This document shows, in pieces, positions 7,722 to 9,333 of a stretch of DNA of 48,241 nt. The first letter of the stretch is position 1. The number at the start of each line of letters is the position of its first letter. Below the pieces are notes generated by a model. It was not told the DNA's origin. It saw only the letters and a list, made by a program, of their open reading frames with translations, and searched no databases. Origin of the DNA: a virus. Its lineage: Duplodnaviria; Heunggongvirae; Uroviricota; Caudoviricetes. The position numbers and the translations under genes are program-made. The stretch covers positions 1-48,241 of IMG/VR virus record IMGVR_UViG_2617270956_000008; one strand, written 5' to 3'.

Positions 7722-7940
7722 TTATGCAGCGTTCTGGCGTGAGTGTCGAATAGTCACTTCAATCCATTCATCAATCTCACTTTCAACAAAAGCGACACAC
7801 CTCGGACCTATTTTTACTCTGTCAGGAAAGTTTCCTTCCTTAATACGCTCATATAAAGTCGTGCGACTAAATCCCACTCGATTTAAAACATCAGGAACGC
7901 GGATAAATCGTTTTACGCTGGTTTCAATATTTTCTTTCAT
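7722..7940 (-). CDS. alpA: AlpA-family phage/island transcriptional regulator, 72 aa
   Basis: Internal ATG at 7938-7940 with GAGGG SD. RFIRVPDVLNRVGFSRTTLYERIKEGNFPDRVKIGPRCVAFVESEIDEWI is the AlpA-type HTH pattern. Confidence 0.8.
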   Translation of the reverse strand: MKENIETSVKRFIRVPDVLNRVGFSRTTLYERIKEGNFPDRVKIGPRCVAFVESEIDEWIEVTIRHSRQNAA

Positions 7941-8156
7941 TGTCTGCCCTCTATTATTGTAAGTAATCTCTATGAGATTTCGCTTTTCTCTATGTTGTTT
8001 CGACGTGAACAATGATAGCGATTTTGCTTATGGTAATTTAGGGACGTTCAAAGAAGTTTTTTTTGAAAAATTCGAAGGGGCACGGATGGAAAGATAACGG
8101 TTAACACTGGATGCGATCACGTTCGCACGGAGCGAACGTAACCCTTTTTACTTGGC

Positions 8157-9050
8157 TTATTTTTTCTTATTCCTGTCGTCTTCTACATGCTTTTCAACAG
8201 GGGAGTCTTTCAAGTGATTGTTTTCCATCATGTAATCTTCAAGCGATTTCAGATAGCTCGCATCCGTCAGAAAAGCCATTGCTAACGGGTAGTCCGTTGC
8301 CTTTAGCATTCCTTCATCACGATCGTTGTCGCTGTCCTCGTGAAGCAGCGAGGAAATCAGTGAAAGCGGGATTTTAATGCCGTTATCTTCTCCCCAGAAG
8401 ATCAGGTCCATCATCGGGATAAGACGATATTCAATAATTTTTCTGAATGTGCTTTTCCCAAAACGATACTCTCTTGGCGCTGGAGACTTCATCTTAAGCT
8501 GTCTCTTCCATCGGGGGATCAACACTTTCAGATGTTCAATGATCTCTTCGGTTGATGCTTCTTCCAGATGAATATCGACAGTAATACGTGAAAGATTATT
8601 AAGGGATGTCTCTTTCAGATACTCGGACAGAAATTCAGACTGGCTTAACCCAGAGAGTTCAGGCGTGGCTTCGGTTAATGCCAGCGTTTTCGCATAAAAT
8701 TGCGCGTGGCTTCGTGTCGTAGGATTTACTGCGTAGGTTCTGGCAAGCTCATGTCCAAGAGTAGCGGTATCACCACTGAAAAAGATTTCACCGCTGAGGA
8801 TCTTGTTGCGGTAATCATCCAGCATTAATCGGTTAAAGGTAGGTATGGTGTTCCGGCTCAACAACATTCTGTAAGCCAAGATGCGCCGCTCAACCTCAAC
8901 ATAAAAATGCTGTAAGGTGAGTTTCTCTATCGCCTCATAGCGTTCAACATCAAACCATGCTTCCAGTGCTTTCCTGGTTTCACTTCTTTTCATCCATCCT
9001 CCAACAATCCATTTCCTTTGATATATCTTCACAGGATCCGTTTGGAACAA
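8157..9050 (-). CDS. YfjJ/YagK-like (inovirus Gp2 family) island protein, 297 aa
   Basis: Size, position next to alpA and general resemblance to CP4-57-type YfjJ proteins, from memory. Not verified by search. Confidence 0.5.
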   Translation of the reverse strand: MFQTDPVKIYQRKWIVGGWMKRSETRKALEAWFDVERYEAIEKLTLQHFYVEVERRILAYRMLLSRNTIPTFNRLMLDDYRNKILSGEIFFSGDTATLGHELARTYAVNPTTRSHAQFYAKTLALTEATPELSGLSQSEFLSEYLKETSLNNLSRITVDIHLEEASTEEIIEHLKVLIPRWKRQLKMKSPAPREYRFGKSTFRKIIEYRLIPMMDLIFWGEDNGIKIPLSLISSLLHEDSDNDRDEGMLKATDYPLAMAFLTDASYLKSLEDYMMENNHLKDSPVEKHVEDDRNKKK

Positions 9051-9271
9051 TTGAAGTTCAACTGTTTTGTCATCAGAGACGGGGGAATGGCTAAGTTGTT
9101 GTTAAGAGTGTGAACTCGGGAGCATAAAAGTGGATGCCCGACGCGCGGCAAAATGGTAAAAAACAGCATCAGTAGTAAGAAAAATTGAGCGAGAGAAAGG
9201 AATTTTAATGCAGGGATTTATGCATGACAAAATCAAAAATGCTTTGTAAGTGATTGATTTTGTTGAATGAT

Positions 9272-9333
9272 TGGCGGAGAGAGGGGGATTTGAACCCCCG
9301 GTAGAGTTGCCCCTACTCCGGTTTTCGAGACCG
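9272..9333 (-). other. partial tRNA-Ser gene (3' portion, anticodon stem to acceptor 3' end): putative att core of integrated element
   Basis: Reverse complement reads CGGTCTCGAAAACCGGAGTAGGGGCAACTCTACCGGGGGTTCAAATCCCCCTCTCTCCGCCA, matching the 3' part of E. coli tRNA-Ser (serU-like, anticodon CGA). The 5' half is absent upstream. Confidence 0.7.

What the first reader, a model, noticed from the sequence alone, without database searches (positions are those of the whole stretch)
7722..9333. Integrase-less alpA/yfjJ remnant abutting a tRNA-Ser 3' fragment: tandem occupancy of one att site
The 62-nt tRNA-Ser 3' fragment is the expected footprint of site-specific integration, with the prophage on its high-coordinate side. 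The low-coordinate side carries AlpA and YfjJ-like genes typical of P4/CP4-type islands, but no integrase lies between them and the fragment. This suggests serial integrations at the same tRNA with decay of the older element.
Basis: partly seen in the sequence, partly recalled or inferred. Interest (0 to 1): 0.45.

Follow-up and report, generated by a model that had tools for sequence, protein, structure and literature searches.

The report
Prophage inserted beside known serU island
The 62-base tRNA-Ser piece is the scar of a prophage that inserted into the serU tRNA gene next to the already well-known 22-kb "serU/tcpC" pathogenicity island of E. coli, whose integrase is intact but sits at the island's far end outside the window, so this is an ordinary and already documented arrangement.

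Summary
Window 9272-9333 (minus strand) is identical to the last 62 nt of E. coli serU tRNA-Ser(CGA). A roughly 40-kb SfV-like/lambdoid prophage lies on its high side, and an AlpA gene lies on its low side with no integrase between. The "YfjJ-like" ORF is actually DUF6387, unrelated to YfjJ.

In the near-identical genome THO-006 (99.98%), the intact serU and the phage integrase lie about 1.4 kb beyond the window's right end. The low side is not a decayed remnant. It is the tRNA-proximal end of the known 22.5-kb PAI-serU (tcpC island). That island has the same gene order in Nissle 1917, where it abuts intact serU. Its 406-aa P4-type integrase sits at the distal end beside a 14-bp repeat of the tRNA 3' end, followed by K-12-type flank.

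The two elements use different sites within one tRNA gene: the anticodon region for the phage and the 3'-terminal 14 bp for the island.

Among 5,426 complete E. coli genomes:
- 3,856 have the empty site
- 340 have the island only
- 696 have the phage only
- 43 have the tandem arrangement
- 0 have the reverse order

This is ordinary and already described.

The parts
9272..9333 (-). Displaced 3' part (positions 29-90, 62 nt) of serU tRNA-Ser(CGA). It is the attR core of the prophage and carries the host-type variable-arm bases A48/T59.
   Evidence: It is identical to the K-12 serU 3' end. ARAGORN finds no full tRNA in the window. The same fragment with the same upstream junction (…CTCTGTATCAT|CGGTCTCG) occurs in other lysogens, L003 and L004. 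GenBank KU052038 annotates a 62-nt tRNA-Ser pseudogene, though with a different upstream junction.
9272..9285 (-). CCCTCTCTCCGCCA, the 14-bp attL core of the serU island (the last 14 nt of the tRNA).
   Evidence: A second copy lies 22,508 bp away in THO-006 (L002 34107-34120), between the island integrase and DNA identical to the K-12 serU downstream flank.
9334..9640 (.). attR arm (P arm) of the prophage. It is shared by several different serU-integrating lambdoid prophages and contains the only two CTTGGAAT/ATTCCAAG octamers of the window (9373-9380 and 9438-9445), which are candidate arm-type integrase sites.
   Evidence: Matches in other strains with different prophage tails extend to about 9637-9678. 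One search gives the octamer counts and shows three further tandem copies in the attL arm next to the integrase.
8157..8993 (-). DUF6387 protein (278 aa as annotated; the maximal ORF runs to 9050). It is the first gene of the serU island and its function is unknown.
   Evidence: Pfam PF19924 E=6e-52. RefSeq WP_000830396.1 is identical in THO-006 and Nissle. It is not related to YfjJ.
7722..7940 (-). AlpA-family small HTH protein (72 aa). It is inferred to be the excision/regulatory factor of the serU island.
   Evidence: PF05930 E=2e-18. It shares 32% identity with K-12 AlpA. It matches PHROGs 'excisionase and transcriptional regulator'.
1..9271 (.). The tRNA-proximal 9.3 kb of the 22.5-kb PAI-serU (tcpC island). 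It carries DUF6387, AlpA, two small hypothetical proteins, truncated H-NS (H-NST-like, 6686-6973), DUF6404, full-length H-NS paralogue (5759-6163), DUF4756, RepL (3549-4130) and an HHH/ComEA-like protein.
   Evidence: It is 99.986% identical to THO-006. Annotations are and Pfam hits. G+C is 31-44% against 50-59% in most of the prophage. Island size and content match PAI-CFT073-serU and PAI-536-serU (PMC7545054).
9334..48241 (.). About 40.4-kb prophage, cut by the window's right edge roughly 1.4 kb before its integrase and the intact serU. It has an SfV-like head and tail, an HK97-type HNH/TerS/TerL module and a lambdoid early region.
   Evidence: The repeat spacing of 40,378 bp in THO-006 comes.

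Best explanation
Window 7722-9333 is the junction between two independent, intact-looking mobile elements lined up downstream of the serU tRNA-Ser(CGA) gene.

Element 1 is the known 22.5-kb serU pathogenicity island (PAI-serU, the tcpC island). It is bounded by a 14-bp direct repeat of the tRNA 3' end. Its AlpA-family gene lies at the tRNA-proximal end and its P4-type tyrosine integrase at the distal end, outside the window.

Element 2 is a roughly 40-kb SfV-like/lambdoid prophage. Its attP carries its own copy of tRNA positions 29-90. It recombined with serU in the anticodon stem-loop region. It rebuilt an intact tRNA from the host 5' part and the phage 3' part, and it pushed the original host 3' part (the 62-nt fragment), together with the attached island, 40 kb away.

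Shown:
- the three repeat copies and their exact junctions
- the hybrid tRNA
- the position of both integrases
- the existence of all four occupancy states in the species

Inferred:
- the island was there first and the phage came second
- AlpA acts as the island's excision/regulatory factor together with the distal integrase
- the CTTGGAAT repeats are arm-type sites of the phage integrase
For: (1) The fragment is exactly the K-12 serU 3' 62 nt.

(2) In THO-006, which is 99.98% identical to the window over 30 kb, the gene order is: mtfA, intact serU, phage integrase, DUF4224, exonuclease, the rest of the prophage, tail fibre, fragment, DUF6387, AlpA, H-NS paralogues, RepL, TIR/tcpC, MobQ, TraD, pilin/PilV, integrase, 14-bp repeat, zinT.

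(3) The DNA after the 14-bp distal copy is identical to the DNA after serU in K-12, so it marks the ancestral junction.

(4) Intact serU in non-lysogens (K-12, Nissle) has A48/T59. Intact serU in two lysogens has G48/C59, a compensatory pair in the variable arm. All six displaced fragments examined have A48/T59. The phage therefore supplies the 3' part, and strand exchange lies between positions 29 and 47.

(5) Nissle 1917 has the same island, with identical protein accessions, directly abutting intact serU, starting with DUF6387 and AlpA and with no integrase there.

(6) The island integrase is 406 aa and has Arm-DNA-bind_3, Phage_int_M and Phage_integrase domains, as K-12 IntA does.

(7) Junction-specific searches of 5,426 complete genomes gave: empty 3,856; island only 340; phage only 696; phage plus island 43; hypothetical order tRNA-island-phage 0.

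(8) At least three different prophage types share the same attR arm beside the island, which suggests repeated phage arrivals next to a resident island.

(9) PAI-serU is described at 22 kb (PMC7545054) or about 27 kb (PMC5521745), 38% G+C, with TcpC, in CFT073 and 536. A serU-integrated lambdoid prophage with an annotated 62-nt tRNA-Ser pseudogene is in GenBank (KU052038).
Against: The intact tRNA, both integrases and the 14-bp distal repeat lie outside the window. They are taken from a 99.98%-identical public genome, not from the window's own genome.

The order of arrival is inferred from arrangement and distribution, and many of the 43 tandem genomes are clonally related.

No free phage genome with a contiguous attP of this type was found in the phage collection.

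No experimental evidence for excision of PAI-serU, or for AlpA acting on its integrase, was found in the papers searched.

PGAP flags the phage integrase as frameshifted in THO-006. However, the 341-aa ORF equals the annotated integrase of another record.
Confidence: 0.9

Rival explanations
1. One reading: the AlpA/'YfjJ' genes are what is left of an old P4/CP4-57-type island that lost its integrase (originally next to the tRNA) through decay after a second element arrived.
For: Within the window no integrase is present on the island side. In K-12 CP4-57 the integrase is the first gene after the tRNA-like gene, with alpA close by.
Against: In prophage-free strains such as Nissle 1917, the island begins with the same DUF6387 and AlpA genes only 279 bp after intact serU, with identical proteins. 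Nothing has therefore been lost at this end. The island's own full-length integrase sits at the other end beside the 14-bp repeat. The supposed YfjJ homologue is not one.
Confidence: 0.03
2. Reverse order of events: the prophage integrated first into an empty serU, and the island later integrated into the 14-bp core carried by the displaced 62-nt fragment rather than into the intact tRNA.
For: The fragment keeps the whole T arm and 3' end, so the island's 14-bp core and its immediate context are present in it. The final arrangement would be indistinguishable from the one observed.
Against: If the island could choose between two equivalent cores, the order tRNA-island-phage should also occur, yet 0 of 5,426 genomes show it against 43 with the observed order. 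Island-only genomes (340) far outnumber tandems. Several different prophages sit next to near-identical islands. The island is reported to be inherited within B2 lineages, where it is exclusively found (PMC5521745).
Confidence: 0.08
3. The tandem array was not assembled in this lineage by two integrations. It was imported ready-made by homologous recombination of a large chromosomal segment (the serU-HPI-pks region).
For: Messerer et al. show horizontal transfer of the serU island, HPI and pks island together with flanking backbone by large-fragment recombination. They call the region a recombination hotspot (PMC5521745).
Against: This concerns only the route into this strain. The array must still have arisen somewhere by two site-specific integrations, as the exact att junctions and the hybrid tRNA show. 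It was not tested here.
Confidence: 0.25
4. The 62-nt match is a chance similarity or a decayed duplicate tRNA gene unrelated to integration.
For: None beyond the absence of a complete tRNA in the window.
Against: The match is 62/62 identical and ends exactly at the tRNA 3' end. The same break point occurs in the other lysogens that share this attR arm. Precise empty sites are found in 3,856 genomes.
Confidence: 0.01

Closest known systems
PAI-serU (PAI VII536, PAI-CFT073-serU, the 'serU island' / tcpC island) of extraintestinal pathogenic and B2-group E. coli, also present in Nissle 1917
   Same: It has the same insertion site (serU), the same size (22.5 kb here; 22 kb in PMC7545054, about 27 kb in PMC5521745) and low G+C. 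The gene set matches, including tcpC, a second TIR protein and the H-NS paralogues. Proteins are identical to Nissle 1917.
   Different: Here the island is separated from the functional serU gene by a 40-kb prophage and abuts only the displaced 62-nt 3' fragment. This happens in 43 of about 383 island-positive complete genomes.
serU-integrating lambdoid prophages, e.g. 'Escherichia phage SerU-LTIIb' (GenBank KU052038)
   Same: It has the same attR arm and the same 62-nt tRNA-Ser pseudogene at the prophage end. The same arm and fragment occur in 696 further genomes without the island.
   Different: The cargo and virion modules differ. This one has SfV-like head and tail genes (94-97% identity to SfV, SfIV, SfII and SfI) and no LT-II toxin. 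Its attR abuts the island instead of yodB.
   Same: It has an AlpA-family protein (32% identity) and a P4-type integrase with the same three domains. It also integrates at the 3' end of a small RNA gene.
   Different: In CP4-57 the integrase is the first gene next to ssrA and alpA follows within 1.3 kb. In PAI-serU the integrase and alpA are at opposite ends, 21 kb apart. There is no YfjJ or YfjI homologue here, and the gene next to the att site is DUF6387.
Tandem arrays (accretion) of integrative elements at one tRNA gene, e.g. the phage-ICE tandems described in Streptococcus (PMC13651849)
   Same: Two integrative elements lie head-to-tail downstream of one target gene with repeated att sequences between them.
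   Different: Here the two elements have unrelated integrases and different crossover sites within the tRNA gene. No evidence of joint excision or transfer was sought or found. That paper was seen only as title and abstract.

Membership tests
Prophage attR footprint of tRNA-targeted tyrosine-integrase integration | Direct repeat of the tRNA 3' portion at both ends of the element, one copy completing an intact tRNA gene | tested here: met
   The 62-nt repeat is at window 9272-9333. It also lies within intact serU, 40,378 bp away, in the 99.98%-identical genome THO-006. That copy is outside the window.
Prophage attR footprint of tRNA-targeted tyrosine-integrase integration | Integrase gene adjacent to the reconstituted tRNA | tested here: met
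   A 341-aa tyrosine recombinase ORF plus a DUF4224 gene lie 53 bp downstream of serU in THO-006. PGAP flags the gene as frameshifted, but the ORF equals the annotated integrase of ON470583.
Prophage attR footprint of tRNA-targeted tyrosine-integrase integration | Precise empty site in related strains | tested here: met
   3,856 genomes have the uninterrupted K-12 arrangement, and 340 have island-only with intact serU.
Prophage attR footprint of tRNA-targeted tyrosine-integrase integration | Contiguous attP in a free phage genome; demonstrated excision or integration | tested here: inconclusive
   No phage record covers 80% or more of the reconstructed attP. The best records are prophage extractions or phages that captured the attR junction. 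Activity cannot be tested with these tools.
PAI-serU / tcpC island | Inserted at serU, about 22 kb, low G+C, carries tcpC | tested here: met
   The island spans 22,508 bp between 14-bp repeats. tcpC is annotated in THO-006 and Nissle. G+C is 0.31-0.44. The description is in PMC7545054 and PMC5521745. tcpC itself lies outside the window.
PAI-serU / tcpC island | Own integrase and flanking direct repeats | tested here: met
   A 406-aa P4-type integrase sits next to the CCCTCTCTCCGCCA repeat and the ancestral flank.
AlpA family (Pfam PF05930) | Significant match to the family profile above the curated cut-off | tested here: met
   66.4 bits against a cut-off of 21, E=2e-18. It shares 32% identity with K-12 AlpA.
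AlpA family (Pfam PF05930) | Acts as activator of the cognate integrase / excision factor | not testable with these tools
   This is inferred from K-12 AlpA/IntA (established knowledge) and the PHROG label 'excisionase and transcriptional regulator'.
YfjJ / YagK family (Pfam PF11726) | Sequence similarity to YfjJ or match to the YagK_YfjJ_C profile | tested here: not met
   The 297-aa ORF matches only DUF6387. BLASTP against K-12 YfjJ gives E=35. K-12 YfjJ matches PF11726 at 1e-63.
CP4-57/P4-type island layout | Integrase as first gene next to the tRNA/tmRNA, alpA nearby | tested here: not met
   The integrase lies at the end distal to the tRNA, 21 kb from alpA, in both prophage-bearing and prophage-free strains.

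The most novel reading that the evidence does not exclude
The phage and island are separated by a fragment that still holds the island's 14-bp core, so three direct copies of that core exist: in intact serU, in the fragment and at the distal end. The island integrase, helped by AlpA, could then excise either the island alone or a roughly 63-kb phage-plus-island composite. Alternatively, the prophage could carry the adjacent island along when induced. The island lies immediately downstream of the late/packaging direction. This would give a route of transfer to a virulence island that is regarded as non-mobile. Against this reading, the packaging module is HK97-like cos type (HNH + Terminase_4 + TerL), which does not favour headful lateral transduction. 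No composite circle junction can be looked for with these tools.
Probability: 0.06. Interest if true: 0.45.

Novelty: already known. Interest (0 to 1): 0.12.

Why it matters
It matters little beyond correct annotation. The case shows that a window-limited view can make a complete island look like an integrase-less remnant when the integrase sits at the far end. It also shows that two elements can share one tRNA gene by using different crossover sites: the anticodon region and the 3'-terminal 14 bp.

In practice, the 62-nt fragment and the G48/C59 signature in intact serU are handy markers for scoring serU lysogeny. The junction counts give the frequency of each occupancy state in complete E. 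coli genomes: 71% empty, 6% island only, 13% phage only and 0.8% tandem.

Tried and rejected
(1) ARAGORN and Rfam on the window found no tRNA. The only Rfam hits are prophage sRNAs, so the fragment is not a functional gene.

(2) I searched the phage collection for a contiguous attP, built from the P arm, the phage-type core and the P' arm. No record covers it. The apparent hits in ev099, mEp332 and PhiR70_1 are a captured attR junction with E. coli chromosomal flank inside lambda-int phages, not an attP.

(3) The YfjJ homology was rejected.

(4) The idea that the younger element's integrase is the decayed one (PGAP 'frameshifted') is not upheld. The 341-aa ORF is the same as an integrase annotated as intact elsewhere.

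(5) Promoter, terminator and repeat scans of 7600-10100 gave nothing above shuffled expectation. The exceptions were a promoter-like site at 9230-9202 (minus strand) upstream of DUF6387 and the att-arm repeats.

(6) Two literature hits for 'serU' turned out to be matches to 'serum'.

(7) Lateral transduction of the island by the prophage was considered and judged unlikely because of the cos-type (HNH) packaging module.

(8) The large protein-homology, structure-prediction and metagenome tools were not used, because the question was settled by comparative genomics.

Full report
**Observation**

Window 9272-9333, read on the minus strand, is CGGTCTCGAAAACCGGAGTAGGGGCAACTCTACCGGGGGTTCAAATCCCCCTCTCTCCGCCA. 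This is identical to the last 62 nt (positions 29-90) of K-12 serU, tRNA-Ser(CGA). The 28 nt that would complete the gene are absent, and ARAGORN finds no tRNA in the whole window. So the fragment is real and is not a chance match.

On its high-coordinate side lies a prophage. It carries:
- a 791-aa tail fibre with a Peptidase_S74 domain
- an SfV-like (Mu-type) baseplate, tail and head, 94-97% identical to SfV, SfIV, SfII and SfI
- portal, TerL, Terminase_4 and HNH genes
- a lambdoid early region with sok, DicF, isrK and C4 RNAs

On the low side, both on the minus strand, are a 278/297-aa ORF (8157-8993/9050) and a 72/96-aa ORF (7722-7940/8012). The small one is a genuine AlpA-family protein: PF05930 E=2e-18, 32% identity to K-12 AlpA, and PHROG 'excisionase and transcriptional regulator'. 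The larger one is DUF6387 (E=6e-52) and shows no similarity to K-12 YfjJ, which belongs to PF11726. No recombinase is encoded anywhere in window 1-9271.

**Wider context**

The window is 99.98-99.99% identical to E. coli THO-006 (NZ_AP022533.1) over the 30 kb that could be compared. In that genome the order is:
- HPI, asnT, mtfA
- intact serU
- phage tyrosine integrase, DUF4224, exonuclease
- the rest of the prophage, ending in the tail fibre
- the 62-nt fragment
- DUF6387, AlpA, two small ORFs
- truncated H-NS, DUF6404, full-length H-NS paralogue, DUF4756
- RepL
- macro-domain protein, TIR protein, tcpC
- MobQ relaxase, TraD, type-4 pilin, PilV, a 606-aa ORF
- a tyrosine integrase
- zinT

The two copies of the 62-nt sequence are 40,378 bp apart. 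The intact tRNA would therefore lie only about 1.4 kb beyond the right edge of the window.

**The older element is complete, not a remnant**

Next to the distal integrase is a third, shorter copy of the tRNA end, CCCTCTCTCCGCCA (14 bp). It lies 22,508 bp from the copy inside the fragment. The DNA that follows it (CTTTATCAATGACTTATCTCCCGACTTCC…) is identical to the DNA that follows serU in K-12. This defines a 22.5-kb element with 14-bp direct repeats inserted at the extreme 3' end of serU.

Its integrase is 406 aa and has the three domains of P4-type integrases (Arm-DNA-bind_3, Phage_int_M, Phage_integrase), as K-12 IntA does. Its size, site, low G+C and tcpC cargo identify it as the published PAI-serU: PAI VII536, PAI-CFT073-serU, the 'serU island'. 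It is given as 22 kb and 38% G+C with TcpC in PMC7545054, and as about 27 kb in PMC5521745.

In E. coli Nissle 1917, which has no prophage here, the same island abuts the intact serU. DUF6387 and AlpA are its first genes and their protein accessions are identical. No integrase has therefore been lost from this end. The island simply keeps its integrase at one end and its AlpA-type factor at the other, and excision would bring the two together on a circle.

**Two different crossover sites in one tRNA gene**

Non-lysogens (K-12, Nissle) have A48/T59 in intact serU. The intact serU of two lysogens has G48/C59, a compensatory change in the variable-arm stem. All six displaced fragments examined have A48/T59. 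The phage therefore brings its own version of tRNA positions 29-90, and strand exchange lies between positions 29 and 47, in the anticodon stem-loop. The island uses only the last 14 bp. So 'tandem occupancy of one att site' should read 'two elements using two sublocations of one tRNA gene'. This is the behaviour expected of different integrase subfamilies (general knowledge of tRNA-targeting integrases).

The phage att arms carry a repeated octamer, CTTGGAAT. Its only two occurrences in the 48-kb window are at 9373 and 9438, within 110 bp of the fragment. Three more tandem copies lie in the attL arm, overlapping the last codons of the integrase gene. These are plausible arm-type integrase sites, but that is inference.

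**Population frequencies**

Junction-specific 560-590-nt queries against 5,426 complete E. coli genomes, counted at 80% or more coverage in one place, gave:

| Arrangement at serU | Genomes |
|---|---|
| Empty site | 3,856 |
| Island next to intact serU | 340 |
| Same phage arm + fragment + ancestral flank (phage only) | 696 |
| Phage arm + fragment + island (as in the window) | 43 |
| Hypothetical order tRNA-island-phage | 0 |

Phage occupancy is similar with the island (43/383, 11%) and without it (696/4,552, 15%). At least three different prophages (SfV-like tail; lambda gpJ-type; a variant with extra cargo) share the same attR arm beside the island. The simplest history is a resident island followed by phage integration into the intact tRNA. 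The reverse order (island integrating into the fragment) is not excluded, but it is disfavoured by the 43:0 asymmetry. Import of the whole array by homologous recombination is possible (PMC5521745), but that concerns only the route into this strain.

**Comparison with what is known**

Both elements and the site are documented. GenBank KU052038 ('phage SerU-LTIIb') even annotates a 62-nt tRNA-Ser pseudogene at the end of a serU prophage. Tandem arrays of integrative elements at tRNA genes are a familiar phenomenon. The CP4-57 analogy holds for AlpA and for the integrase family, but not for the layout or for YfjJ.

**Verdict**

The arrangement is ordinary, already known, and present in about 0.8% of complete E. 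coli genomes. Interest is low.

The only speculative angle is joint excision or phage-assisted movement of the island. It is untested and is made less likely by the prophage's cos-type packaging module.

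Noticed in passing
L008 (phage ev099, LR597635.1) 2480-2900 and about 5090; also mEp332 and PhiR70_1: Free lambdoid phages with a lambda-type attP/int carry three joined pieces in their b region: the serU-prophage attR arm, the host-type 62-nt serU fragment, and K-12-type chromosomal flank. That is a captured prophage-chromosome junction, probably from recombination with, or aberrant excision of, a serU prophage.
   Followed up: partly
window 9245-9261 (island left end) and L001 about 17236-17253 (phage attL arm): Both elements carry nearly the same 17-nt motif, AAAAT(T)CAATCACTTACA, a few bases after the tRNA 3' end. It resembles the native K-12 flank ATCAATGACTTA. Related copies lie inverted in the phage P arm (9349-9376, 9404-9427). 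It may be a shared host-factor site or a relic of att capture from a serU locus.
   Followed up: no
L002 25748-30673 (THO-006) and L006 34473-39397 (Nissle); window 3549-4130: RefSeq annotates a MobQ relaxase, TraD, a type-4 pilin, a PilV adhesin and RepL in the serU island, although PMC5521745 states the island has no mobilisation or transfer genes. It looks like an integrated mobilisable, plasmid-derived element.
   Followed up: no
window 5759-6163 (+) and 6686-6973 (-): Two H-NS family genes lie side by side in the island. One is a full-length paralogue (N- and C-terminal domains). The other is a truncated protein with only the oligomerisation domain (H-NST-like).
   Followed up: partly
L004 (APEC IMT5155) 3279-5162: A variant of the serU island carries SMODS nucleotidyltransferase and SLATT genes (a CBASS-like defence pair) where this window has the truncated H-NS and DUF6404 genes. 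This part of the island appears to be a variable cargo slot.
   Followed up: no
window 36414-36588 (-), 44269-44320 (+), 44554-44630 (+), 44655-44742 (+): Rfam gathering-score hits in the prophage early region: sok antitoxin RNA, DicF, isrK and C4 antisense RNA.
   Followed up: no
L001 17262-18312 (THO-006 prophage integrase, outside the window): PGAP marks the phage integrase as frameshifted, yet an uninterrupted 341-aa ORF is present. It is the same length, and nearly the same sequence, as the integrase annotated as intact in ON470583. Its C-terminal codons are formed by the CTTGGAAT repeats, which may confuse model-based annotation.
   Followed up: partly
window 10062-12437 (-): The tail-fibre ORF is continuous (791 aa) in the window. 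In the near-identical THO-006 record, however, it is annotated as a partial stfP plus a separate 'tail fiber domain-containing protein'. G+C drops from about 0.57 to 0.45 across it, which suggests a mosaic receptor-binding end.
   Followed up: no
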